DNA from: a virus
Length of the DNA: 64,000 nucleotides
Virus record (IMG/VR): IMGVR_UViG_3300032238_000599
Span: 1-64,000 of that record
Direction: 5' to 3' (one strand)
Part shown: in pieces, positions 4,321-59,319 of the stretch
How positions within the stretch are numbered: the first letter of the stretch is position 1
Layout of the letters: every line of letters starts with the position of its first letter
Made by a program: the position numbers and the translations under genes
Notes under the pieces: model-generated
The model's input: the letters and a program-made list of their open reading frames with translations, nothing else
What the model was told of the DNA's origin: nothing
Databases searched by the model: none

Positions 4321-4846
4321 TGCATTCAGTGCCGGTCAGATTGAAAGTAAAATCTGGGCGGCTGAAGAATTAGAAAAAATAGCGGCCCATATTCATATTC
4401 TTAGGATTACAATCTTAGGAGGATGGTATGGGCTTCTTCATTTTATTCTCAAGTCTCGTGGGCGTCAAATGATCGAGTGGTGTCGAAGTTACGATCTTGA
4501 TGCGAGTGCGTGTGCCGGTGCTAATGCAATTAATAACACTTGGGAAATTCAAGACTGGAAGTTTAGAGCAACTCCAGCAGATGCTAATACATTAAAATAT
4601 GATGATGGTACTAATTGTATCATCAACACCTCAACAGAACATTTTAACAGTCAAGATTGGTTTAGCAATATACCCGAAGGAATGTTATGTGTTCTTCAAG
4701 GTAATGATTTAGATATCGAAGATCATATAAATCGCCCTAGTAACTTAGAGCATTTTAAAAAAATGTATCCGTTGCAAGTTTTATTATTTGCAGGCGAGAA
4801 AAAATTTGATAATTACACACGATATATGATAATAGGTCACAAATAA
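4292..4846 (+). CDS. putative class I SAM-dependent methyltransferase-like protein
   Basis: ILGGWYG glycine loop, acidic YDLD after beta-2, INTSTEH. Start revised to ATG 4292 to avoid a long overlap. Confidence 0.55.
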   Translation: MSKTVRLQTDAFSAGQIESKIWAAEELEKIAAHIHILRITILGGWYGLLHFILKSRGRQMIEWCRSYDLDASACAGANAINNTWEIQDWKFRATPADANTLKYDDGTNCIINTSTEHFNSQDWFSNIPEGMLCVLQGNDLDIEDHINRPSNLEHFKKMYPLQVLLFAGEKKFDNYTRYMIIGHK

Positions 4847-7008: not shown

Positions 7009-8044
7009 ACTGCTCTTTTAACCAATCCCAATTATTGATTAGTTTTAATTTAGCAGGATTGCCTTTGTATTTCTCACCAAACTCTTTACCGGCGTTTGCA
7101 CCAGAAATAATGTATTCCCCGTACTTAGTATCTTTACCAATTGTTAGCCAAGTAACTAGTCTGTGATCAGTTTCTTCTTGTACTTGGCGATCAATTACAG
7201 CACTTGCTAATTTAGCACATTCCCTAAACGCGGCACGCCATGCACTAAATGGTCCGGTGGCAAAGTTATTATAATTGCTAACTTTTTCCATTATCTTAAT
7301 GTTAGCTCCTAGGCTAGTCGTGACGTCAACACTATTAGGGTCGGCATCTAATATCAAATGCCTTGGAAGCAGTTTGACTCCACCGTTGCCATATACTAAA
7401 TTGTTTACTTTATTCTTGCTGGGCCAAATATGTACTACATCAAAATCCCAACTAGGTACTTCGTAATCGAAATTAAAATCTTCCATAATTTCTGCATCAG
7501 CATCGACTACCCAGAAAAAATCTGTACTGCTGTCTAGTGCGGCTTGTAAGTGTGCATTAAAAATTCCTTTAACGTCTTTAACTCTACGTGCATAAGGATA
7601 TTTTTTTAACAATTCTTGGTAATTTTTTTCTGCTGTTTTTTCTTTGTAGCTTAAGAAAAATACATCATATATCTTTTTATAAAATAACCCAAAGTCTACA
7701 TCAAGTTTAACTTCATTAAAAAAGTTTTTTTCAAATTGATCATCTGTAAATACATGATTTTTTGGAATTAAGAATAAATTGTCGTAGCCAATTAGTTGAT
7801 GATGAACATAATTTACATCCCACTCAGGAACTGTAAATTTAAAAATGTTGTTGCTTATACCTATCTCTGCTGGTAAGAACCAAAACATAGAGGTATTAAT
7901 CTTTTTTAAAAGACGCTTAGTGTAAATTAAGTAGTTAAATGTTTCACCAACTTGTATAAAATGTGCAGTAGGATAAGTTTTCTTTAACCAATCTAATTTA
8001 TACTGAGGGAAATTTTTCTTGTAGTAAAAACCAATATCGTACAT
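6965..8044 (-). CDS. putative glycosyltransferase (GT-A fold)
   Basis: FLSYKE, VKGIFNAH, WVVDAD DxD motif, YGNGGVKL, AWRAAFRE. Paralog of the next gene. Confidence 0.6.
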   Translation of the reverse strand: MYDIGFYYKKNFPQYKLDWLKKTYPTAHFIQVGETFNYLIYTKRLLKKINTSMFWFLPAEIGISNNIFKFTVPEWDVNYVHHQLIGYDNLFLIPKNHVFTDDQFEKNFFNEVKLDVDFGLFYKKIYDVFFLSYKEKTAEKNYQELLKKYPYARRVKDVKGIFNAHLQAALDSSTDFFWVVDADAEIMEDFNFDYEVPSWDFDVVHIWPSKNKVNNLVYGNGGVKLLPRHLILDADPNSVDVTTSLGANIKIMEKVSNYNNFATGPFSAWRAAFRECAKLASAVIDRQVQEETDHRLVTWLTIGKDTKYGEYIISGANAGKEFGEKYKGNPAKLKLINNWDWLKEQFTQQSLKSSGISQQ

Positions 8045-16278: not shown

Positions 16279-18461
16279 GCTGTTACACCAGTATAAATGA
16301 TATAGTTAATAGTTAAGTACGGATTCATAACATTAAATGGTGTTGCTAGCGTTGTTCCCAGTGGAACATCGACGCCACCGCTATCTGTTAGATACTGTCC
16401 TTGTCCAGGAGCCGTTGCTCCAAACCCGCTAATTGCATTTGAATCTGGAGGACTTCCTGTAACATTACGCAATGCATAATATTGATTTCCAACATTTCCA
16501 TTTACAGTTCCCTTTAATGTATGCTTGTGTTCCGGTAAGTTTGCTGTAGTTAAACTAGCACTCTCAGATCCGACACCTGTACCTAGAATATCTGCAGATG
16601 TATCTGTAACTCGGTTAGCACTTCCGCCGCCTGCATCAATACTAACTGGATTGTTGCCCCCGCCGCTTTGAGAACTGAACACAGTTAAATTATTATCCAT
16701 GTTATCTCTACCTAGCGGGAATCTTCCTCGCATATCTGGTAGAGCAAATGTAGCATATCCATCCAATAGTCCAACGTCTTTGTACAAATATCCTATTACT
16801 GCAAATAATCCCGGATAGTCAGCAATTCTAACTTCACTACCATCACACAATAGCCATCCATCTGGGGCAGTTGCACCACCAAATGGCATAAATGCCCCGA
16901 TTGGTACTGTGGCTATATTTTTAAAAATAGAAGCTTTAGTAGTTTGTAAAAGTCCAGCACCAGATCTAAAAATTAAAAATTTATCACTGTTGTTTGAATC
17001 ACCAACAAGTGTTTTCTGTGTAATAAACGATGGACTAATAACTGTGTTTAAAGTTACTGTACCAGTAGCCGAAGTACCATTAAACGGCAAAGGTGTAGTT
17101 GTTAATACGTCCCCGTCTATAGTAATATCAACAAAGTTTGTTAATTGATCAGCACTTCCGGCGGCAGTTCCAGATGCTAGGCTACCTGAAAAGTTTCCTG
17201 AAAAGTTTCCAACAAAATTGTTAGCATAAATGTTATTAAATTTCTGTGTAGCACTACCAATATTATATTTTCCGGTGGCGGCTAGTATTGGAAGAATAAT
17301 CGGTGTTCCGTAGTCAATGCCTGTTTGTATGCCAGTAGTATCTTTATTAAGAATTATTTGTCCGCCAATTGTAGCATCGGTTCCAACTAATAATTGTTTT
17401 GTTATTGCCGCACCACCCTTGGCTACTAGACTTGCAGAGTTAAAGTTAATAACATCATCTGTTCCAGTAATTTTTAAACTGTCATCAGTTGCAATAGATC
17501 CGCCCACGTCAAGAGCCGCAGTCAATGCGCCTTGTTTGTTAATACCAACATTAGTTGTACTATCTACACGAAGTACTGTAGTAACGTTACCTTGATTGTT
17601 AACTCTTAAATCAATACTGGCTCCTGATACTTTGTTATAAAGTATAGCTTTGTTGCCGTCTGTAGAAACTGTAAAGTTTAAGTCGCCGCCAATGTTTAAT
17701 CCCGAATCACTTCTAACGTTAATTCCATAAGTTGTAGTACTAACTTGGTCGCTTCTTAAGAAGTTACTAGCGGCAATAGCAGTACCGTTAATAACTAACG
17801 ACTTTGCTTTTTCGCTTGTACCCCAAAATTGGTTATTAGTGATTTCTGAACTTAGGTTCATTCCTGGATTGATGGCATAGTCTCTGCCAGCTTGAAGTGT
17901 AAAACCTGGAATAGTTCCTTTAGGAGTAAATGCAGTACCAGATATAATTGCTACTCGATTACCGTCTGCATAAAATGTAATAACGTTATTTGTAGTATCT
18001 GTTAAGTCGACGATTGTTTCAAACTGTGGACCAGTCTTTGAACCAGTACTAAAAGTAGGACCTACTAAAACCCAACTTGAGCCAGTGTACAAGTATACTT
18101 GCTGTCCAGCTGTATCAACATACAAGTCGCCTTTGATAGCAGGTGTTGATAATGTAGGAGGCCCAGATTGTTTTTTAACACCACCGGTAGGTGCCCATCT
18201 TGAGCTGTCCCACACATAAAGTTGGTTGTTTCCAGCACTATTGTTAAACCATAATTGTCCTTGAACAGGATTCAATGGTGCTGTTGGTGCGGCAAAATTT
18301 TCTAGTAAATGTAAAAAATTTTCTGCAATTACTGTAGCATAGCCTGGATAATTTTTACCAACAAACGTTACACTGGTAGAAGTGTCAAGCGTTTGATCTT
18401 CTACTGTAATATCTGGTTTTGATTGATTATTAAGTTCAGTATGTTTAACTGTATATGCCAT
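16275..18461 (-). CDS. tail fibre protein with tail-collar domain
   Basis: PIGAFMPFGGATAPDGWLLCDG...LPDMRGRFP collar motif, C-terminal PYLTINYII. Confidence 0.8.
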   Translation of the reverse strand: MAYTVKHTELNNQSKPDITVEDQTLDTSTSVTFVGKNYPGYATVIAENFLHLLENFAAPTAPLNPVQGQLWFNNSAGNNQLYVWDSSRWAPTGGVKKQSGPPTLSTPAIKGDLYVDTAGQQVYLYTGSSWVLVGPTFSTGSKTGPQFETIVDLTDTTNNVITFYADGNRVAIISGTAFTPKGTIPGFTLQAGRDYAINPGMNLSSEITNNQFWGTSEKAKSLVINGTAIAASNFLRSDQVSTTTYGINVRSDSGLNIGGDLNFTVSTDGNKAILYNKVSGASIDLRVNNQGNVTTVLRVDSTTNVGINKQGALTAALDVGGSIATDDSLKITGTDDVINFNSASLVAKGGAAITKQLLVGTDATIGGQIILNKDTTGIQTGIDYGTPIILPILAATGKYNIGSATQKFNNIYANNFVGNFSGNFSGSLASGTAAGSADQLTNFVDITIDGDVLTTTPLPFNGTSATGTVTLNTVISPSFITQKTLVGDSNNSDKFLIFRSGAGLLQTTKASIFKNIATVPIGAFMPFGGATAPDGWLLCDGSEVRIADYPGLFAVIGYLYKDVGLLDGYATFALPDMRGRFPLGRDNMDNNLTVFSSQSGGGNNPVSIDAGGGSANRVTDTSADILGTGVGSESASLTTANLPEHKHTLKGTVNGNVGNQYYALRNVTGSPPDSNAISGFGATAPGQGQYLTDSGGVDVPLGTTLATPFNVMNPYLTINYIIYTGVTA

Positions 18462-42930: not shown

Positions 42931-43755
42931 ATGACTAAAGTAAATTACTTAAACAACAAAGACATATTAGAAGAAATCCACCGTTCGAAGAATACCTATT
43001 CGAGCTATACAAAACCAGAATATAGTAGCTACGATCTTATTCTGCCTAATTTGGATAAAATTAATATTCGCACTATAGCAGAAGCTAAACGTGCTAAAGC
43101 CAAACGACAAAGCCAAGCTGAGTACGAAAGGCGCAAAAAAGAGGGTGAAAAAGTCAAACAAGCAGACTGCGAAGTTGACTATAAAAAGATTAAAAAAGAA
43201 GATCTAGTATTCCGTATAATGACGTTTGATCATATACCGACAAACAGCACACGAAAGAAAAATCCTAAAACAGTTGCTGACGGACGAGACAAAGTTAATT
43301 TTCCTCCATATCAGCACTGGAAGTTTGATGAGAATGATCAATTAATCTGTGTTGGAAAGAGTCACTGGAAAGGTCCGGTGGACACTGGCAAGTTCAACAA
43401 AGATCATGGGCAAATTACAAACACCTTAGCTCGTATGTACATTAAACTCTGCGAACGATATGCTACTCGCGGAAACGTTCGCGGCTACACATATAACGAC
43501 GAAATGAAAGGGCAGGCTATTTTACAGCTTACACAAATTGGTTTACAGTTTGATGAAAGTAAATCAAACAATCCGTTTGCCTATTATACTGCGGCTGTTA
43601 CTAACAGTTTCGTTAGAGTTATTAATATTGAAAAACGTAATCAAAACATTCGAGATGACATTTTAGAAATCAACGGCATGAATCCTTCTTACACTAGAAC
43701 AGGGGAAGGTGAATATGCTAATGCTATGAAACGCCACAACGAGGATCATGAATGA
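42931..43755 (+). CDS. gp55: late-transcription sigma factor (T4 gp55-like)
   Basis: NYLNNKD N-terminus, YTY.DEM...A, FD..KS.NPFAYYT, SF.R.I..EK. Sits upstream of gp47/gp46. Confidence 0.8.
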   Translation: MTKVNYLNNKDILEEIHRSKNTYSSYTKPEYSSYDLILPNLDKINIRTIAEAKRAKAKRQSQAEYERRKKEGEKVKQADCEVDYKKIKKEDLVFRIMTFDHIPTNSTRKKNPKTVADGRDKVNFPPYQHWKFDENDQLICVGKSHWKGPVDTGKFNKDHGQITNTLARMYIKLCERYATRGNVRGYTYNDEMKGQAILQLTQIGLQFDESKSNNPFAYYTAAVTNSFVRVINIEKRNQNIRDDILEINGMNPSYTRTGEGEYANAMKRHNEDHE

Positions 43756-44762
43756 GCTTATTTAAAAAAGCCGCATTATTTACAGACATACACTTTGGTT
43801 TAAAGTCTAACAGCCATACACATAATCAAGACTGTGAGGATTTTGTAGACTGGTATATTGCAAAAGCCAAGGAGGAAGGCTGTGACACTGGAATTTTTAT
43901 GGGTGATTGGCATCACAATCGGAACAGTCTTAACATCACTACTATGGACTATAGCCTTAGGGCCTTGGAAAAACTGGGTCAGGCGTTCAATCAATTTTAC
44001 TTTTTCCCTGGTAATCATGATCTATATTACAAGGACAAGCGGGATATCCATTCAGTCGAGTTCGGTAAGTACATACCTGGAATTACTGTGGTACATGAAC
44101 CTATTACCATTGGCGATGTTACATTATGCCCTTGGCTCGTCGGCGACGAATGGAAGGCAATAGGTAAAAAGAAAGCCAAATATATCTTTGGGCATTTTGA
44201 ACTTCCGCATTTTTACATGAATGCAATGGTACAAATGCCAGACCATGGGGAAATACAACTAGATGCATTTAACGGTTATGAGATGGGCTTTAGCGGGCAC
44301 TTCCATAAGCGTCAAAGCAAAGGTAATATGCACTATATCGGCAATGCATTTCCACACAACTATGCAGATGCTTGGGATGATGACCGAGGAATGTGTATAT
44401 TAGAGTGGGGTGGCACGCCAACTTATCACAGTTGGCCTGAACAACCTACATTCCGTACAGTAAAACTAAGTCAGCTTATCGACGAAGCTGATACTCTGAT
44501 TAAACCTAAACAACACTTGCGTGTTAGCTTAGACATTGATATTAGTTACGAAGAGGCAAGTTTTATTAAAGAAAAGTTTATGTCGGATTATGAGATTAGA
44601 GAACTTACTTTAATCACTGAAAAGAAAGACGTTGAAATTAATACAGACATCAATATTCAAGCCTTTGAAAGTGTTGATCAGATTGTGTCCAATCAGATTG
44701 TAAGTATTCAAAGCGATACGTATAATACAAATACTTTACTGGCAATTTATAACAGCCTATGA
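43752..44762 (+). CDS. gp47: recombination nuclease (Mre11/SbcD, T4 gp47-like)
   Basis: Metallophosphoesterase motifs DIHFG, GDWHH, GNHD, GHF, SGHFH. Confidence 0.9.
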   Translation: MSLFKKAALFTDIHFGLKSNSHTHNQDCEDFVDWYIAKAKEEGCDTGIFMGDWHHNRNSLNITTMDYSLRALEKLGQAFNQFYFFPGNHDLYYKDKRDIHSVEFGKYIPGITVVHEPITIGDVTLCPWLVGDEWKAIGKKKAKYIFGHFELPHFYMNAMVQMPDHGEIQLDAFNGYEMGFSGHFHKRQSKGNMHYIGNAFPHNYADAWDDDRGMCILEWGGTPTYHSWPEQPTFRTVKLSQLIDEADTLIKPKQHLRVSLDIDISYEEASFIKEKFMSDYEIRELTLITEKKDVEINTDINIQAFESVDQIVSNQIVSIQSDTYNTNTLLAIYNSL

Positions 44763-46540
44763 TAAAAATTAAAGATTTAACTGTAAAAAACTTTATGAGT
44801 GTGGGCAATCAAACCCAGGCTGTAGATTTTTGCAAAGAACAACTTACACTAGTTCTAGGAGAAAACTTAGATCAAGGTGGAGATGATAGTGGTTCACGTA
44901 ACGGCACAGGTAAAACAACAATTGTCAATGCATTAAGTTATGCACTTTACGGGCAAGCACTAACAAACATTAAAAAAGATAATTTAATCAACAAGATTAA
45001 CAATAAGAATATGTTGGTTACACTACATTTTGAAAAAGATGGGGTAGATTATCGAATCGAGCGTGGACGTAAGCCTAACATTCTTAAGTTTTATATTAAC
45101 GATCAAGAACAAGACGCCGAAGAAAGTGATGATGCACAAGGCGACATGCGTGAAACACAAAAGGATTTAGATGATATCCTAGGTATGAGTCACGATATGT
45201 TTAAGCATATTCTAGCACTTAATACCTATACTGAGCCTTTCTTAAGTATGCGTAGCGGTGATCAACGTGCTATTATTGAACAGTTGCTAGGTATTACTAT
45301 TCTTAGCGAAAAAGCAGAAGCACTTAAAGAATTAGTTCGGTTAACTAAAGAACAAATAACACAAGAAAGTGCTAACATTGAAGCGTCACGTAAGTCTAAC
45401 GAAAAAATACAAGAAAGTATTCTAGCATTAGAGCGTAGACAAACTATGTGGTTAGCAAAGAAAGAAGAAGACTTAACTAAGTTACTAAATCAATGGAACG
45501 AATTACAAAAAATCGACATTGAAGTTGAAATTCAATCTTGGAAGGATTTATCTGCGTACAATCAAAAGAAAAAAGATATTGGTGATATTACTTCAGCTAT
45601 CGCAAGATCCGAGACTGATCTAAATCGAGAACAATCTAATGTTAAGAAGCTAAACAAAGAACTAGCTTCATTAGCAGAACACAAATGTCATAGCTGTGGA
45701 CAAGAACTACATGATACTAAACATGAAGAACTGGTAAAAACTAAAACTGATAGTTTAGTAGAATCTGAAGAAACCATTAAAGAATATGAAGATCGTATTG
45801 TACAACTTCAAGAAGCAATTACAGAGCTAGGTGAATTAGGTCCTCAACCTAGTGTAGTCTATGCAAAAGAAGAAGATGCTATTCATCATCGTAGTACATT
45901 GTCTAGTTTAGAAAAACAAATAGCTTCTAAACAAGAAGAAACAGATCCATATCAAGAACAAATTGACGATATTAAACAAACTGCCTTACAAGAAATTGTT
46001 TGGGACAAAGTTAATGAACTTAACAGTTTAAAAGATCATCAAGAATTCCTACTTAAACTTTTAACTAGCAAAGATAGTTTTATCCGTAAGAAGATTATTG
46101 ATCAAAACTTAGCATACTTAAACAATCGTTTAACTTATTATCTTGATAAGATGGGTTTGCCGCACACTGTCAGTTTCTTAAACGACTTAAACGTAGAAAT
46201 TACACAACTAGGGCAAGACTTAGACTTTGATAACTTGTCACGCGGTGAACGCAACAGACTTATCTTAGGGTTGTCATGGGCATTCCGTGATGTGTGGGAA
46301 AGTTTATATCAAAACATTAACTTGTTATTCATTGATGAGTTAATTGACAACGGACTAGATGCCAACGGTGTTGAAAACGCACTAGCAGTTCTTAAGAAGA
46401 TGGGCAGAGAACGTAATAAAAACGTTTATCTAATTAGTCACAAGGATGAATTAATTGGGCGTGTTAACAATGTACTTAAAGTTATTAAAGAAAATGGCTT
46501 TACATCATACGCGAACGATTTAGAAATAGAAGATGAATGA
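44759..46540 (+). CDS. gp46: recombination ATPase (Rad50/SbcC, T4 gp46-like)
   Basis: KNFMSVG, Walker A NGTGKT, coiled coil with CHSC zinc hook, LSRGE signature, FIDE, ISH. Confidence 0.92.
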   Translation: MIKIKDLTVKNFMSVGNQTQAVDFCKEQLTLVLGENLDQGGDDSGSRNGTGKTTIVNALSYALYGQALTNIKKDNLINKINNKNMLVTLHFEKDGVDYRIERGRKPNILKFYINDQEQDAEESDDAQGDMRETQKDLDDILGMSHDMFKHILALNTYTEPFLSMRSGDQRAIIEQLLGITILSEKAEALKELVRLTKEQITQESANIEASRKSNEKIQESILALERRQTMWLAKKEEDLTKLLNQWNELQKIDIEVEIQSWKDLSAYNQKKKDIGDITSAIARSETDLNREQSNVKKLNKELASLAEHKCHSCGQELHDTKHEELVKTKTDSLVESEETIKEYEDRIVQLQEAITELGELGPQPSVVYAKEEDAIHHRSTLSSLEKQIASKQEETDPYQEQIDDIKQTALQEIVWDKVNELNSLKDHQEFLLKLLTSKDSFIRKKIIDQNLAYLNNRLTYYLDKMGLPHTVSFLNDLNVEITQLGQDLDFDNLSRGERNRLILGLSWAFRDVWESLYQNINLLFIDELIDNGLDANGVENALAVLKKMGRERNKNVYLISHKDELIGRVNNVLKVIKENGFTSYANDLEIEDE

Positions 46541-46778
46541 TTCACATGACGAATTACTAAAGGCTTTCAGGCAATACTTTGAAGCTAACCAACGGTGGAT
46601 TAATGACCAAACACGAGTTGCGGGCATGGATATGCGGTGGTGGCTTTCAGAAATTAGGCGAATATGCACAAGGCGACGGGCAGAGGTACAGGAATGGCGC
46701 CACGAAGTGGACAGCGCAAAGCGCGAACGGAAAAAGCGCCAAAAAGAGGAGGCCAGTAAAGGCAAAGATAATACATAG
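46533..46778 (+). CDS. small basic helical protein (possible nucleic-acid binding)
   Basis: 81 aa, Arg/Lys-rich, overlaps the gp46 stop. Confidence 0.65.
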   Translation: MNDSHDELLKAFRQYFEANQRWINDQTRVAGMDMRWWLSEIRRICTRRRAEVQEWRHEVDSAKRERKKRQKEEASKGKDNT

Positions 46779-46781
46779 TTG

Positions 46782-47219
46782 ATGTCATGGTATTATCAAA
46801 ACTCAATAATCGAAACTCTACCCGAAGAATGTATAGGCTTCGTTTATTGTATCACTAATAACATCACTGGTCGCAAGTATATAGGCAAGAAATTAGCAAA
46901 ATTCTCTAAGACAACTTATAAAACAGTAAAACTCAAAAACGGCAACAAGAAGAAAAAACGGATTCGATCTAAAATCGATTCTGATTGGCGTGAATACTAT
47001 GGCAGCAACGACCAACTAAACAAAGACGTAGAACAACTAGGCGCAGAAAACTTTCACAGAGAGATACTTTATTACTGCACATCAAAGGCTGAATGTAGTT
47101 ATATCGAGGCTCGAGAACAATTCTCAAGGCGAGTATTAGAATCAGACGACTACTACAACGGACAAATCGCTGTTCGTGTACACGGCTCACATATTAAAGG
47201 CAAACAATTAAACGGTTAA
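46782..47219 (+). CDS. stand-alone GIY-YIG endonuclease
   Basis: GFVY...YIG motif, W..YYGS, candidate catalytic Glu in SYIEAREQ, YYN. No C-terminal DNA-binding domain. Confidence 0.82.
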   Translation: MSWYYQNSIIETLPEECIGFVYCITNNITGRKYIGKKLAKFSKTTYKTVKLKNGNKKKKRIRSKIDSDWREYYGSNDQLNKDVEQLGAENFHREILYYCTSKAECSYIEAREQFSRRVLESDDYYNGQIAVRVHGSHIKGKQLNG

Positions 47220-47221
47220 GG

Positions 47222-47575
47222 CAAGCGTCAGCTAATATCAGACGCCCTATACCTGGATCTTGGATCGCAGGGATGGAAAACTCTCGCCGTTAAGAGTGCT
47301 CAACCACTACCCGAAAGGATGAGGATCGCTTGTAAGCCCTGCGATTTGGTTGTTTGAAAAGGAAAGTATAGGCAAAAGGAAGGGAGAAAAACCCTACGTA
47401 TACGCTAGTGATAGCAGATTTGCGTATACCGCCGTTGTAAGAAGACGGAGCTCGTGGTACAGGACAACCGCCACTGTAATGCTCTACTGCTGTGTGACAT
47501 TGTGCAACTCAGATAATGTTTATTTTTAGCCCGGAAACGGGCTAAGTGTGACTGAACAATCTAGATAATATCTTA
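47222..47575 (+). ncRNA. candidate large structured non-coding RNA
   Basis: No long ORF, about 48% GC by hand count over 47221-47550, more than 10 nested helices, GAAA tetraloops and possible pseudoknots. Strand inferred from the GNRA loops and operon direction. Confidence 0.65.
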
Positions 47576-47649
47576 AGTGCTTCGCACTTCATTATAACTA
47601 GTAAAATGCGTTGAGCTTTAGCGAAAACGCAAGTGAGCTTCAGCTCACT
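47575..47649. repeat. cluster of three short hairpins
   Basis: AAGTGC-ttc-GCACTT, TGCGTT...AACGCA, AGTGAGC-ttca-GCTCACT. Confidence 0.7.
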
Positions 47650-47652
47650 ATT

Positions 47653-47660
47653 AATAAATA
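47653..47660 (+). promoter_or_regulatory. late promoter AATAAATA
   Basis: TAAATA core 20 nt before ATG 47681. Confidence 0.55.
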
Positions 47661-47680
47661 AACTATATTGAGCTTGAACG

Positions 47681-48685
47681 ATGAAAATTTCTGAATTATT
47701 AATTGAAAAAGAAACACCTGTTAAGGGAAAGACTGACTCAGGTAATCCTGCTGGTGCGGCTGTAATAGCAGGTGGTGCTGTTGCTGGCGGAGCAATGGCC
47801 TTAAGTAAAGAATCAATTGGTAAATTTATTAAGACTAGCCAACGTCGTTGGAAAGTTAAAAACAAGATGACCGAGCGCAAAGTCGCTCGTATGATGGAAA
47901 AGTGGGGAACAGGTACTGTATGGTTGTTCCGTATTCTAGGAATGACCACAGTTGTATACCAATGCTACAGTGATCTTGCTAATCTAGAAGAAGATTACGA
48001 ACGTGGTGATGAAGAATTCTTAAAGACTCAGGCTGCTTATGAAGCTTGCCGTGAGTATGTATTCGGTGTAGCCATTGCTCAATTTGCTGTACAGACAGTA
48101 CATTGGGTAGCAGGTGGACGTATTGCTATGTGGATCTTCCGTGTGATACGTTGGGTTACAGCTGGTGCTACTGCTGGATTTACTGCTGGAGCTTCCGTTG
48201 CGGCTCTAATTGCCACAGAAGCTATGTTTGTATGGTTTGAAACTTGGATCGGTAGTGAAGAAGGTAAGCGTTGGATCTCTGAAACATTCTTAGGTGGTAT
48301 CTTACGTAACTTTGGTAAGATTCCTGATGGTGCTATCAGCAAACTAACTGATCACTATAGTAAAGCTAACACTAAAAAAGATGCTAATGCCGAGAAAACT
48401 GGCAAGCCAACAGCAAAAGATGACAGTAGAGATCCAGATAAAAACGATCGTTATGTTGACGGTGTGCTAGTAACTAATCCAGACGGATCAATTATTCCAG
48501 GTATTGAATCTAATGTTCGTGTTAAAAACGCTATTACACAAGCGGCAAAAGATGGCAAACCTAATCCATTAACTGCAATACGTGACGAGCTAAAAGCAGA
48601 CCCTGCTAAGACTCAACAAACCGCTCCTAGTCAAGGAGCACCAAAGAGTGCAGATGACTTGAGTTCTTTCAAGTACAGTCTTTAA
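47681..48685 (+). CDS. hypothetical protein with Gly/Ala-rich hydrophobic helices, possible internal virion protein
   Basis: 334 aa, N-terminus MKISELLIE, GxxxG-rich segments. Confidence 0.7.
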   Translation: MKISELLIEKETPVKGKTDSGNPAGAAVIAGGAVAGGAMALSKESIGKFIKTSQRRWKVKNKMTERKVARMMEKWGTGTVWLFRILGMTTVVYQCYSDLANLEEDYERGDEEFLKTQAAYEACREYVFGVAIAQFAVQTVHWVAGGRIAMWIFRVIRWVTAGATAGFTAGASVAALIATEAMFVWFETWIGSEEGKRWISETFLGGILRNFGKIPDGAISKLTDHYSKANTKKDANAEKTGKPTAKDDSRDPDKNDRYVDGVLVTNPDGSIIPGIESNVRVKNAITQAAKDGKPNPLTAIRDELKADPAKTQQTAPSQGAPKSADDLSSFKYSL

Positions 48686-54040: not shown

Positions 54041-54043
54041 ATA
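54036..54043 (+). promoter_or_regulatory. late promoter CATAAATA
   Basis: Overlaps the portal stop codon, 7 nt before ATG 54051. Confidence 0.5.
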
Positions 54044-54050
54044 CACTACT

Positions 54051-54293
54051 ATGATCTTAAGAGAACTGTTTTATATTGATCCAGAAACTAAAAACATTGC
54101 TACAGATTTGAGATATAATCCGGGCAATGATCGTTCTATGTTTCGTAAACACGATACACGTAGAACACGCCTTACCTTAGGACAGATCAACGAATTAAGA
54201 AAAAGCAGTGAAGCTCACATTCTTGAACAAGAAGATGAGTTATCTTTTATTAACACTATGTACGGAGCAGAGCCTGCGGCGCCTCCGGCATAA
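54051..54293 (+). CDS. small head-cluster protein
   Basis: 80 aa starting MILRELF, TRRTRLTL motif, between portal and core genes. Start revised. Confidence 0.7.
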   Translation: MILRELFYIDPETKNIATDLRYNPGNDRSMFRKHDTRRTRLTLGQINELRKSSEAHILEQEDELSFINTMYGAEPAAPPA

Positions 54294-54399
54294 ATATCAC
54301 ACGCGGCAAAAAACGGTCGTTTTTTCGCCATTTCACGCTTAATATTACATTTATATGTAAATATAATTGACAGCCTTGCACAATTCACAGGAGACAAAC

Positions 54400-58262: not shown

Positions 58263-58336
58263 GATCTACATGCCGTAGATTTTATGCGGAAATCCAACCG
58301 CGTATGGCCTAGAACGCCAACTTTCTTAAGGAGAAA
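58263..58336 (+). promoter_or_regulatory. structured 5' leader (candidate cis-regulatory RNA)
   Basis: Three consecutive hairpins before the AAGGAG SD. Confidence 0.5.
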
Positions 58337-58341
58337 ACAAA

Positions 58342-59319
58342 ATGGGACGTCCTTTAAACAAAAAATATTTTGGTAACCGAAACATCGGTACCAACGGCTA
58401 TGTAACAGACAATAGCCCAAACGCTAATACACCAGAAGGTGATGATAAGATTGGTGGTGAAGGTATTGAATCTTACACACTACCAGTACAACTAGGTAGT
58501 ATCGAAGTTGATAGTAATAGCGGTCAACCAACATTAACAATTCCAGCACCGCAGATACCAGGCGGTGTACAAGCTACAGCTACAGTAGTTTGGGAAGTTG
58601 CAAGCATTACCATTAAAAATACAAATGACTATGGTACAAGCTATGTTAATGGCGAAACTGTAACATTTACAGGTGCTACTGGTGTAACTGCTACTGTTGC
58701 AGTTGCCGCAGACGACATTGGAGTTATTACCCCAGTTCTCCGCGGATCATTTACTACAATTCCATCGAGCGAATCATATAATATCATTGGCGCTGTAGGT
58801 AACGACGCACAAGCAGAAATTACTTGGCGTGTTAAATCTATTACTAAATTACAAAGAGGTTCAGGTTATACTACAGCTCCAACACTATCGTGGGCCGCTG
58901 GATTAGCTGGCGCAATTTCTGGAACAAGTCCAGGAGCTCCAACTGCGGTATTAACTGTTGATACAGGTGCAGTTGGTTCATCTACTAATCAAGAAAACGC
59001 AATTATTATTCGTGCTAACACTACTGATGATGGCACAAAAGTTGGCGATATTACTAAACAAACTAACACACGTAGCTACAAAGTTAAAACAGCAGACGGC
59101 ACAGCAGTTTGTAAACTAGTTGCAGACTCAACTCCAGGTTTTCAAGAAGCATATATTGTTGCTACTTCTGCATCGGGTGCTACATATTATGTTACTAAGC
59201 TAACAGGCCACAAAGCAACACTAGTAACAAAAACTGGTGACGGAGCATTAAATGGTAAAGCCGCTCCATGGACATTTAACTCAACAGCTAACGGTCGAGT
59301 AATCATCGAAAACGCATAA
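58342..59319 (+). CDS. virion structural protein (possible head decoration)
   Basis: Strong SD, follows the capsid gene, MGRPL N-terminus, T/G-rich. Confidence 0.65.
   Translation: MGRPLNKKYFGNRNIGTNGYVTDNSPNANTPEGDDKIGGEGIESYTLPVQLGSIEVDSNSGQPTLTIPAPQIPGGVQATATVVWEVASITIKNTNDYGTSYVNGETVTFTGATGVTATVAVAADDIGVITPVLRGSFTTIPSSESYNIIGAVGNDAQAEITWRVKSITKLQRGSGYTTAPTLSWAAGLAGAISGTSPGAPTAVLTVDTGAVGSSTNQENAIIIRANTTDDGTKVGDITKQTNTRSYKVKTADGTAVCKLVADSTPGFQEAYIVATSASGATYYVTKLTGHKATLVTKTGDGALNGKAAPWTFNSTANGRVIIENA

What the first reader, a model, noticed from the sequence alone, without database searches (positions are those of the whole stretch)
47222..47575. Large, ornately structured orphan ncRNA directly after a GIY-YIG gene
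Seen: this is the only long non-coding gap (about 460 bp, 47220-47680) in a densely coding window, and it is about 48% GC while other gaps are AT-rich. Helices readable by eye: GCGTC 47225-29/GACGC 47241-45; CCTATAC 47246-52/GTATAGG 47366-72 (long-range, closes a domain); ATCGCAGGG 47264-72/CCCTGCGAT 47337-45; ACTCT 47280-84/AGAGT 47293-97; CAACCA 47301-06/TGGTTG 47347-52; CC-GAAA-GG 47311-18; AGGG/CCCT 47381-95; GTATACGC 47398-405/GCGTATAC 47422-29; CCGT/ACGG 47432-48; GAGC 47448-51/GCTC 47481-84 enclosing GTGG/CCAC; GACATTGT 47496-503/ATAATGTT 47513-20; TTAGCCCG-GAAA-CGGGCTAA 47526-45. The loop sequence ATAGCAG 47411-17 can pair with CTGCTGT 47487-93, a pseudoknot. I see no tRNA, tmRNA or RNase P hallmarks. 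Inference: a multi-domain RNA comparable in complexity to large phage/bacterial ncRNAs such as HEARO, GOLLD or ROOL, or a ribozyme, possibly a new class.
Basis: partly seen in the sequence, partly recalled or inferred. Interest (0 to 1): 0.88.

Follow-up and report, generated by a model that had tools for sequence, protein, structure and literature searches.

The report
Known Polynucleobacter-1 RNA, full-length phage copy
The gene-free stretch behind a small nuclease gene of this uncultured freshwater T4-like phage encodes a real, knotted non-coding RNA of about 430 bases, but it is not a new class: its first third is the Polynucleobacter-1 motif catalogued in 2010, and its function is still unknown.

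Summary
The RNA is real. It is not an orphan. Window 47220-47355 matches Rfam RF01718 (Polynucleobacter-1) at 115 bits against a cut-off of 37. The 3' tail with the pseudoknot is already in the 2010 authors' supplementary alignment.

What goes beyond the literature I could search:
- The RNA runs to about 47649, roughly 430 nt.
- It has a second, loop-loop pseudoknot.
- Its 3' domain carries two 7-nt words (AGAUAAU at 47511-17 and 47563-69). They are identical in 75 of 76 relatives, although the word changed at least 22 times on the tree.

The small GIY-YIG gene is nearly always followed by such an RNA in this phage group (at least 64 of 67 loci). Distant homologues of the gene lack the RNA. 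Polynucleobacter chromosomes carry the RNA without the nuclease, on tRNA-Phe islands beside DUF6641 and a 188-aa tyrosine recombinase. An RNA-guided nuclease is therefore unlikely. My best reading is an autonomous RNA that shows one word twice to an unidentified partner.

This scan has met the same RNA at least eight times on other DNA.

The parts
46779..47219 (+). Small stand-alone GIY-YIG nuclease gene (146 aa, SegE-like, phrog_447). Its stop codon abuts the RNA.
   Evidence: Pfam PF19835, E 5e-33, covering residues 4-130. phrog_447, E 1e-37, over the whole 148-position profile. Homologues at 74-95% identity lie upstream of the RNA in 71 of 76 testable loci chosen by the RNA.
47220..47355 (+). 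5' domain, the Rfam Polynucleobacter-1 motif (RF01718). It has four hairpins and an enclosing stem, 47301-06/47347-52.
   Evidence: cmscan 115 bits (cut-off 37), model positions 1-141 of 141. Compensatory changes occur in all its stems. Two further covarying pairs are 47279/47297 and 47307/47321.
47381..47429 (+). Two tail hairpins: 47381-84/47392-95, and 47398-405/47422-29 continued by 47407-10/47417-20. The loop of the second forms pseudoknot 1.
   Evidence: In helix 12, 11 of 12 pairs have changes on both sides. One search gives the pair types. Both hairpins are in Weinberg's SS_cons.
47411..47493 (+). Pseudoknot 1: loop 47411-16 pairs with 47488-93.
   Evidence: 6 of 6 pairs have changes on both sides and 97.5% of cells are paired (helix 13). 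47416/47488 is GC 60 and AU 16; 47415/47489 is CG 61 and UA 15. It equals the 'tailpknot' of the 2010 alignment.
47434..47485 (+). Core: hairpin 47434-35/47445-46 and the three-tier stem 47447-51/47481-85, 47453-57/47471-76, 47461-63/47468-70. The stem holds the near-invariant GGUAC(A/C)GGACAACCGCC. Pseudoknot 2 is the loop-loop pairing 47436-38/47464-66.
   Evidence: 47448/47484 is CG 32, GC 28, UA 11, AU 3. For pseudoknot 2, 47436/47466 is UA 41 and CG 35, and 47437/47465 is GC 51 and AU 23, all standard pairs. 3 of 3 pairs are compensatory (helix 15). Pseudoknot 2 is not in Weinberg's consensus.
47491..47518 (+). Module 1: GUGUGAC, 10 nt, CUC, then box 1 AGAUAAU (47511-47517).
   Evidence: The four variable box columns share all or nearly all their information with the twin columns (MI 0.62-0.91 for entropy 0.62-0.99), and far less with any other column.
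47525..47546 (+). Hairpin between the two modules (UUAGCCCG-GAAA-CGGGCUAA).
   Evidence: 47528/47543 is UA 49, AU 8, CG 4; 47525/47546 is CG 48, UG 21. It has no U-run after it on either strand, so it is not an intrinsic terminator.
47545..47570 (+). Module 2: AAGUGUGAC, 7 nt, UCU, then box 2 AGAUAAU (47563-47569).
   Evidence: It is identical to box 1 in 75 of 76 relatives across 9 different words. The word changed at least 22 to 23 times on a tree built without these columns, always in both boxes. The spacing of 47-56 nt varies continuously.
47575..47649 (+). 3' end with three hairpins: 47575-89 (GC-UUCG-GC type), 47607-12/47626-31 with the loop GAGCUUUAGCGAA, and the terminal hairpin 47632-49.
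   Evidence: 47578/86 and 47579/85 covary. The loop consensus GAGC..AGCGA is found in 50 of 76 phage tails and in the bacterial copies, with stems of different sequence.
47653..47660 (+). AATAAATA, which matches the T4-type late promoter TATAAATA at 7 of 8 positions. It lies just after the terminal hairpin and 20 nt before the next gene (ATG at 47681).
   Evidence: In many relatives UAUAAAUA or AAUAAAUA follows the terminal hairpin directly. The T4 consensus is quoted from established knowledge. Function was not tested.

Best explanation
Window 47220 to about 47649 (+) encodes a full-length member of the Polynucleobacter-1 RNA family (Rfam RF01718). It is a non-coding RNA of about 430 nt, most likely transcribed as the 3' end of the gp47-gp46-ORF81-GIY-YIG operon, because no promoter of its own was found. 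It ends at a terminal hairpin just before a late-promoter-like box.

Shown:
- A 5' four-hairpin domain.
- A core locked by two pseudoknots.
- A 3' domain in which two similar modules flank a hairpin. Each module displays the same 7-nt word.

Inferred:
- The RNA works on its own, as a folded scaffold that offers one sequence 'address' twice to a single partner. That partner would be a dimeric protein or two copies of a complementary RNA, and it is not encoded next to the RNA.
- The word is a specificity determinant that keeps changing.
- The same RNA sits both in T4-like phages and in mobile islands of Polynucleobacter. The most likely arena is therefore conflict or hijacking between phage, host and island (decoy, mimic or immunity-type RNA), not service as a guide for the neighbouring nuclease.
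For: Identity:
- RF01718 at 115 bits.
- The published tail and pseudoknot.
- The same upstream gene family as in the 2010 alignment.

RNA rather than DNA or protein:
- 89.8% of cells are paired against 77.1% in shuffles. 57 pairs have changes on both sides against 38.4. The covariation score is 0.379 against 0.151 (0 of 500 shuffles reach it) and at most 0.086 with slid partners.
- G-U pairs are frequent on the + strand only.
- No conserved ORF: the longest ATG-ORFs are scattered between 10 and 90 aa.

Extent: similarity in more than 110 loci runs from the nuclease start to about 47575-47595. Conserved hairpins then follow to 47649.

Twin words:
- Identical in 75 of 76 relatives, with at least 22 joint changes.
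- No covarying complement in the RNA, none within a few kb on either side (whatever each locus holds), and no third module in the 145-kb record.

Autonomy:
- 17 of 151 sampled Polynucleobacter species carry 1-2 copies that have twin boxes but no GIY-YIG gene. These copies sit beside DUF6641 (20 of 20) and a 188-aa tyrosine recombinase (15 of 20), in a roughly 10.6-kb tRNA-Phe island.
- Phage records with the RNA, the window's own among them, have neither of these proteins. One of them is a complete 347-kb genome whose copy has a different 5' domain.
- No residue of the nuclease tracks the word.
Against: - No transcript data exist, so the 5' and 3' ends and the stability of the RNA are inferred.
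- No partner was found, so 'one reader, two sites' is an inference from identity alone.
- In this phage group the RNA is glued to the nuclease gene (at least 64 of 67 loci). A functional link with it is therefore not excluded.
- The conflict or decoy role rests only on where the RNA is found.
- Part of box 1 could pair with the invariant AUCU before box 2. No compensatory change supports this.
Confidence: 0.6

Rival explanations
1. The RNA is a cis-acting 3' UTR element of the nuclease operon. The folded RNA would protect the upstream mRNA from 3' exonucleases, direct its processing, or insulate early and middle transcription from the late gene that follows.
For: - The RNA starts at the stop codon of the GIY-YIG gene, with no promoter-like site in between.
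- It ends at a hairpin just before a late-promoter-like box.
- It stays next to the gene in at least 56 of 67 loci.
Against: - About 430 nt with two pseudoknots, near-invariant junction nucleotides and co-evolving twin words is far more than stabilisers or terminators need.
- In 8 loci a whole ORF lies between gene and RNA.
- In bacteria the RNA stands alone, divergent from DUF6641.
- The terminal hairpin lacks a U-run in the window.
Confidence: 0.15
2. The RNA is a guide or targeting subunit for a catalytic-domain-only DNA enzyme. That enzyme would be the 146-aa GIY-YIG nuclease in phages and the 188-aa tyrosine recombinase in the bacterial islands, by analogy with HEARO (the omega RNA of IscB). 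The twin words would specify the DNA target.
For: - The nuclease is essentially a bare GIY-YIG domain: Pfam covers residues 4-130 of 146.
- The island recombinase is a bare catalytic domain: Pfam covers residues 6-176 of 188.
- Both lie next to the RNA.
- A fast-changing word of fixed length is what a guide would look like.
Against: - The same protein family (phrog_447) is widespread in cultured T4-like phages (506 records). Six checked loci have no RF01718 hit, twin boxes or core motif.
- RNA and nuclease occur apart.
- No nuclease residue covaries with the word.
- Neither the word nor its complement is enriched nearby or in the 145-kb record: 20 and 22 copies against 26 expected.
- 7 nt is very short for a DNA guide.
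Confidence: 0.06
3. The RNA is a self-processing or otherwise catalytic RNA (ribozyme) of an undescribed class.
For: - Invariant nucleotides are concentrated in junctions and loops, for example CAGGGAUGGAA, CACUA and GGUACCGGACAACCGCC.
- There are two pseudoknots, as in many ribozymes.
Against: - No match to any Rfam ribozyme or intron, even at E up to 10.
- No exon context.
- Nothing testable by computation points to a cleavage site.
Confidence: 0.08
4. The conserved block acts as DNA: a replication origin with iteron-like repeats, a packaging signal shared by helper phage and satellite island, or a pair of recombination sites whose 7-bp cores must match.
For: - Direct repeats that are identical within a genome but differ between genomes are typical of iterons and of crossover cores of tyrosine recombinases (established knowledge, not tested here).
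- The element is shared by phages and an integrative island that encodes a recombinase.
Against: - Strand-specific G-U pairs and compensatory changes across 88 pairs, pseudoknots included, show selection on a folded single strand.
- The spacing of the boxes varies continuously, 47-56 nt in phages and 58-72 nt in bacteria, so there is no helical phasing.
- The phages lack a recombinase.
Confidence: 0.05

Closest known systems
Polynucleobacter-1 RNA motif (Rfam RF01718; Weinberg et al. 2010, Genome Biol 11:R31, PMC2864571)
   Same: - Full-length match of 47220-47355 to the model (115 bits).
- The same tail hairpins and 7-bp pseudoknot as in the authors' alignment.
- The same position, right after the same small gene family ('GOS11034', homologous to PSSM2_218 of cyanophage P-SSM2).
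- The same freshwater habitat.
   Different: - The catalogued model stops at 141 nt, and the authors' motif stops at the pseudoknot (about 47493).
- Here the RNA continues for about 155 nt more: twin-box modules, three more hairpins, and a second pseudoknot.
- The authors found it in no sequenced purified phage. Here it lies in a 145-kb T4-like phage record, and it lies in hundreds of IMG/VR contigs.
RF01718-negative 'twin-box' RNAs after the same gene in sister phages
   Same: - The same core, GGUACCGGUCAACCGCC.
- Module 1, hairpin, module 2 with identical 7-nt words.
- The GAGC..AGCGAAA loop hairpin and the terminal hairpin.
- The same position after the GIY-YIG gene.
   Different: An unrelated 5' domain of about 250 nt. 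No Rfam hit.
HEARO RNA, the omega RNA of IscB (an orphan motif of the same 2010 survey, later shown to guide the adjacent nuclease; from memory, a lead only)
   Same: A large structured RNA next to a small nuclease gene on mobile DNA.
   Different: - No Rfam hit to HEARO, and no IscB or TnpB-type protein.
- Nuclease and RNA occur apart.
- No guide-like segment was found that matches flanking or other DNA.
GOLLD and ROOL large non-coding RNAs of phages and prophages
   Same: Large, ornate, function-unknown RNAs carried by phages and mobile elements.
   Different: No sequence or structure match at E up to 10. This RNA is smaller and has no tRNA genes nearby.
Specificity words kept identical at two sites: the seqA/seqC targets of the phage P4 CI immunity RNA, and the spacer cores of lox/FRT-type recombination sites (from memory, analogies only)
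   Same: Short words that may change freely, provided both copies change together.
   Different: - In P4 a complementary seqB lies close by. No complement exists here.
- lox/FRT cores lie between inverted arms and need a recombinase, which the phages lack.

Membership tests
Polynucleobacter-1 RNA (RF01718) | Score at or above the family's gathering cut-off over the whole covariance model | tested here: met
   115 bits against 37; model positions 1-141 of 141; E 3e-24.
Polynucleobacter-1 RNA (RF01718) | The consensus helices are kept through compensatory changes in relatives | tested here: met
   Helices 1-9 are 94-100% paired. 21 of their 34 pairs have changes on both sides.
Polynucleobacter-1 RNA (RF01718) | The 3' 'tail' hairpins and 7-bp pseudoknot of the authors' full motif | tested here: met
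   Helices 11-13 and 16-18. Pseudoknot 47411-16/47488-93 has 6 of 6 compensatory pairs. SS_cons and SS_cons_1 are shown.
Polynucleobacter-1 RNA (RF01718) | Location directly downstream of a GOS11034 / PSSM2_218-like gene | tested here: met
   The C-terminal 34 residues of the flanking ORF in the 2010 alignment and in the window are about 75% identical. The stop codon abuts the RNA in both.
Group I or group II intron carrying a homing endonuclease gene | Match to an intron model, and flanking exons of an interrupted gene | tested here: not met
   No Rfam intron hit at E up to 10 in 46700-47900. The upstream ORF81 ends with its own stop, and the downstream gene has its own start. The neighbours differ between loci.
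HEARO / omega RNA guide of IscB or TnpB | Match to the RNA model, and an adjacent IscB or TnpB nuclease | tested here: not met
   No Rfam hit. The neighbour is a GIY-YIG protein.
GOLLD, ROOL, RNase P RNA, tmRNA, tRNA | Match to the respective model | tested here: not met
   cmscan finds nothing but RF01718 in the gap. ARAGORN finds no tRNA or tmRNA in the 64-kb window.
Free-standing GIY-YIG homing endonuclease (T4 SegE type), for the neighbouring gene | A GIY-YIG catalytic domain joined to a C-terminal DNA-binding domain, with patchy presence among close relatives | tested here: inconclusive
   - The catalytic domain is present (PF19835, E 5e-33).
- Only about 16 residues follow it, and the whole family profile is 148 positions long.
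- The gene is found in 506 cultured phage records, which looks more like a conserved phage gene than a selfish one.
- I did not search for empty sites.

The most novel reading that the evidence does not exclude
The twin 7-nt words are an exchangeable address by which the RNA recruits a DNA enzyme that lacks a DNA-binding domain to a matching nucleic-acid sequence. The enzyme would be the bare GIY-YIG nuclease in phages and the bare 188-aa tyrosine recombinase in Polynucleobacter islands. That would be a new RNA-programmed nuclease and recombinase platform, shared by phages and the islands they meet.
Probability: 0.05. Interest if true: 0.95.

Novelty: new member of a known kind. Interest (0 to 1): 0.45.

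Why it matters
Polynucleobacter-1 has been an orphan RNA since 2010, and only one paper in the searchable library mentions it. This window gives a clean full-length copy in a T4-like phage. Comparison with relatives shows that the catalogued 141-nt model covers only a third of the RNA.

The uncatalogued 3' domain has an unusual signature: two 7-nt words that stay identical while changing at least 22 times. That signature defines a direct experiment, swapping one box or both.

The RNA also occurs on tRNA-Phe islands of an abundant freshwater bacterium, which points to a tractable host system. If the partner of the twin words is found, it may reveal a new mode of phage-host or phage-island interaction.

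As it stands, this is a known family with unknown function, met repeatedly in this scan.

Tried and rejected
1. blastn of the gap against 50,697 cultured phage records gave no match.
2. The pattern scan of genome contigs gave 120 hits. All were chance: none shares RNA or protein similarity with the window. The pattern was too loose for 596 Gb.
3. Rfam at E up to 10 on the gap gave nothing besides RF01718 and one noise hit.
4. I looked for a partner of the twin words.
   - No column of the RNA covaries with them apart from the twin.
   - The reverse complement occurs at background rate in the DNA held around each RNA: 0.5 per locus against 0.45 for foreign words.
   - There is no third module in the 145-kb record, and the 7-mer occurs at chance frequency.
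   - No nuclease residue tracks the word.
5. I considered sigma-70 promoter and intrinsic terminator readings of the modules and hairpins. The scan finds none on the + strand, and the GUGAC-to-box spacing of 12-14 nt is too short.
6. I considered stop-codon and mini-ORF readings of the boxes. U(A/G)A is always present in phage boxes but absent from the bacterial boxes (AGCGAAA and others), so I rejected this.
7. DUF6641, the island neighbour of the RNA, gave an AlphaFold model of pLDDT 82. It has no informative structural match: Foldseek E at least 0.36, VIA Z at most 5.4 with only coiled-coil-like hits. No paper mentions it.
8. DUF6641 and tyrosine recombinase were sought in the window's own record and in five other phage records. 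None was found.
9. My first assumption that the complete 347-kb phage carries RF01718 was wrong. It has a variant RNA with a different 5' domain.

Full report
**What is there**

The window belongs to a 145-kb IMG/VR virus record that CheckV rates 39% complete. The genes around the finding are those of a T4-like phage:
- a gp47-like phosphoesterase (43752-44762);
- a gp46-like SMC/AAA ATPase (44759-46540);
- an 81-aa ORF;
- a 146-aa SegE-type GIY-YIG protein (46779-47219; Pfam PF19835, E 5e-33; phrog_447);
- then the gap, a 334-aa ORF, and a T4 baseplate gene on the other strand.

The gap 47220-47680 has 43.8% GC (46.1% for 47220-47575), against 37.3% for the window. Two other ORF-free stretches exist, but they sit at background GC.

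**It is a known family**

cmscan against Rfam 15 places RF01718, Polynucleobacter-1 RNA, on 47220-47355. The score is 115 bits against a cut-off of 37, and all 141 model positions are matched. Nothing else in Rfam matches the gap, even at E up to 10, and ARAGORN finds no tRNA or tmRNA in the window.

The only paper in the library that names the motif is Weinberg et al. 2010. Its supplement says the motif lies downstream of genes of family GOS11034, with possible homology to PSSM2_218 of cyanophage P-SSM2. It also says the 3' half is not always detected, and that no sequenced purified phage had it.

The authors' Stockholm file separates a short SEARCH_MOTIF, which became the Rfam model, from a longer ACTUAL_MOTIF. 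The longer one has further hairpins (several covarying pairs in their cov_SS_cons line) and a 7-bp pseudoknot. The flank of one of their sequences translates to EQFSRRVLESEEYYNGHIQVRVHGSHILNKISNG*. The window's nuclease ends REQFSRRVLESDDYYNGQIAVRVHGSHIKGKQLNG*. Gene, junction and RNA are therefore the published ones.

**Is the structure real, and how far does it reach?**

blastn of the window against these loci shows one conserved block, from the start of the nuclease gene to about 47575-47595. I aligned 76 distinct RNA sequences that are 63-81% identical to the window. Per-pair counts show compensatory changes in the Rfam part and equally in the tail. Examples are 47448/47484 (CG 32, GC 28, UA 11, AU 3) and 47455/47473 (AU 56, UA 20).

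A formal count on 34 diverse sequences, using my structure of 88 pairs, gave these results:

| Measure | Observed | Shuffles | Slid partners |
|---|---|---|---|
| Cells paired | 89.8% | 77.1% | - |
| Pairs changed on both sides | 57 | 38.4 | - |
| Covariation score | 0.379 | 0.151 (0 of 500 reach it) | at most 0.086 |

Mutual information also revealed a second, loop-loop pseudoknot, 47436-38/47464-66. At 47436/47466 the pairs are UA 41 and CG 35. At 47437/47465 they are GC 51 and AU 23. This pseudoknot is not in the 2010 consensus.

47264-72/47337-45 and 47496-503/47513-20 are not conserved. Of 47246-52/47366-72, only three invariant pairs remain.

Frequent G-U pairs mark the + strand as the folded one. 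No ORF is conserved in the region.

**The 3' end**

After 47575 the sequence diverges but the structure continues:
- a short GC-UUCG-GC hairpin (47575-89, with covarying pairs);
- a hairpin (47607-12/47626-31) whose loop, GAGCUUUAGCGAA, follows a consensus GAGC..AGCGA seen in 50 of 76 phage tails and in the bacterial copies;
- a terminal hairpin (47632-49).

In many relatives the terminal hairpin is followed directly by UAUAAAUA or AAUAAAUA. This is the T4-type late promoter word, which I quote from memory as consensus. The RNA is therefore about 430 nt, not 354.

**Twin boxes**

Earlier agents of this scan reported 'twin 7-letter boxes' in this family. I checked this independently.

Two similar modules flank the hairpin 47525-46. 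Each is GUGAC, about 10 nt, CUC or UCU, then 7 nt. In the window both 7-mers are AGAUAAU (47511-17 and 47563-69).

Across the 76 sequences there are nine words: AGAUAAU, GGAUAAU, GGAUGAA, GCAUAAU, GGAUGAU, AGAUGAG, GAAUGAU, AGAUGAU and GAAUAAU. The two copies are identical in 75 of 76 sequences. Each variable column shares practically all its information with its twin, and far less with any other column.

On a tree built without these columns the word changes at least 23 times in box 1 and at least 22 times in box 2. For position 1 of the word, well-supported independent contrasts show box 2 following box 1 in 5-6 of 6 pairs and never going the other way (p about 0.03). The 3 supported contrasts each at positions 5 and 7 also all agree, but are too few to test.

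The spacing between the boxes varies smoothly from 47 to 56 nt. This argues against a phased pair of DNA sites.

I found no reader:
- The complement is not enriched in the DNA held around each RNA.
- There is no third module in the 145-kb record.
- No residue of the nuclease tracks the word.

**Relation to the nuclease**

Among loci chosen by the nuclease that have enough downstream DNA, 64 of 67 carry the pattern CTC-N7...TCT-same-N7 within 2 kb. In 56 of them it lies 276-450 nt after the gene, and in 8 it lies behind an inserted ORF. The control rate is 7 of 160.

Fifteen of these loci have no RF01718 hit. One of them lies in a complete 347-kb phage that has no RF01718 hit anywhere in its genome. 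Alignment of five of them shows that these RNAs share the core, the modules and the 3' hairpins, but have a different 5' domain. The 3' half is therefore the constant part, and the Polynucleobacter-1 5' domain is one of at least two variants.

More distant homologues of the nuclease (47.5% identity or less) occur in 506 cultured phage records. They include T4-like cyanophages, Melnitz, phiN3 and Cellulophaga phages, and they are often mis-named 'NAD synthetase'. Six loci I inspected have no large gap, no RF01718 hit, no twin boxes and no core motif.

**Bacterial copies**

Searching sampled Burkholderiaceae-level relatives and then one genus found RF01718 above the cut-off in 17 of 151 species, with 1-2 copies each. 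One hit has the coordinates of the type-strain hit in the 2010 paper.

In these genomes the conserved block consists of three parts:
- a divergently oriented DUF6641 / phrog_31551 gene, present in 20 of 20 loci;
- an RNA of about 490 nt;
- a 188-aa tyrosine recombinase that is a catalytic domain only, found within 1.5 kb in 15 of 20 loci, sometimes behind an inserted ORF.

No GIY-YIG gene is present in these blocks.

In the type strain the block lies in a segment of about 10.6 kb, bounded by a copy of the 3' end of tRNA-Phe and by the tRNA itself. Further remnant copies lie nearby, so this is an integrative island.

The bacterial RNAs also have twin boxes, CUC-AGCGAAA and UCU-AGCGAAA. Variants are AACAAAA, AUCAAAA, AGAGAAA and GGAGAAA. 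The two copies are identical in 13 of 18 loci, at 58-72 nt spacing.

The window's own record and five other phage records with a twin-box RNA have neither DUF6641 nor a tyrosine recombinase. A confident model of DUF6641 (pLDDT 82) matched no solved fold informatively.

**Interpretation**

Shown:
- A real, strand-specific RNA of about 430 nt with two pseudoknots.
- Membership in RF01718.
- Two co-evolving words.
- Conserved adjacency to the nuclease gene in one phage group.
- Independent occurrence of the RNA, and of the nuclease family, elsewhere.

Inferred:
- The RNA acts on its own and presents one address twice to a single partner that is not encoded beside it.
- Its presence both in phages and in host islands suggests a role in their conflict.

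The rivals remain open at lower odds: a cis-acting 3' UTR element, a ribozyme, a guide RNA for the bare nuclease or recombinase, and a DNA-level element.

The bare catalytic-domain enzymes next to the RNA in both settings are a suggestive coincidence, and I list them as the novel case at 5%.

**Standing**

The finding is a correct observation of a known, still unexplained RNA family. This scan has already described it on other DNA at least eight times. The island context (DUF6641, minimal recombinase, tRNA-Phe) did not appear in those notes.

Noticed in passing
window 58264-58344 (+): Full-length match to Rfam RF02980, freshwater-2 RNA (72 bits, cut-off 49.9). It ends in AAGGAGAAAACAAAAUG, so it sits directly on a ribosome-binding site and start codon. 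It is another orphan freshwater motif in the same phage.
   Followed up: no
L185:3424-3860 and also L152, L171, L166, L168 (viral contigs): Sister phages, one with a complete 347-kb genome, carry an RNA after the same nuclease gene. It shares the core, the twin-box modules and the 3' hairpins, but its 5' domain of about 250 nt is unrelated and matches no Rfam family.
   Followed up: partly
L350 (Polynucleobacter genome G186, contig 1, 2122000-2141000): The bacterial RNA copy lies in a segment of about 10.6 kb between a 45-nt copy of the tRNA-Phe 3' end (7301-7379) and tRNA-Phe itself (17907-17982). Four more remnant copies lie nearby. This is an array of integrative elements. Neighbours include patatin, an AAA ATPase and several ORFs without any Pfam hit.
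   Followed up: partly
L337:866-1303 (-) and L350:10260-10826 (+): In 20 of 20 bacterial loci a DUF6641 / phrog_31551 gene is divergent from the RNA. In 15 of 20 a 188-aa tyrosine recombinase consisting of the catalytic domain only follows within 1.5 kb. The three parts diverge together (54-100% identity).
   Followed up: partly
window 47613-47625; bacterial loci, for example L337 about 1950-1965: The loop GAGC..AGCGAA(A) of the penultimate hairpin contains the word AGCGAAA. This is also the commonest twin-box word of the bacterial copies, which thus hold up to four copies of it. The loop word does not change when the boxes do.
   Followed up: partly
L335 (G265 contig C80): One contig of a Polynucleobacter-genus assembly holds a phage-type copy of the RNA (box GCAUAAU, with a late-promoter-like word after the terminator). 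This probably reflects phage DNA binned with the host. If so, it hints that Polynucleobacter is a host of these phages.
   Followed up: no
window 46779-47219 and cultured phage records: This GIY-YIG family (phrog_447; 'T4-like GC 213' in cyanophages) is widely annotated as 'NAD synthetase'. The label is contradicted by its clear GIY-YIG domain.
   Followed up: partly
window 47649-47632 (- strand): Read on the minus strand, the terminal hairpin is followed by UGCGUUUUCG and scores as a terminator-like site. It might stop antisense transcription coming from downstream.
   Followed up: no
window 4321-4846 and 54041-54366: Two further stretches without ORFs of 75 aa or more, at background GC (36-37%). 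Not examined.
   Followed up: no
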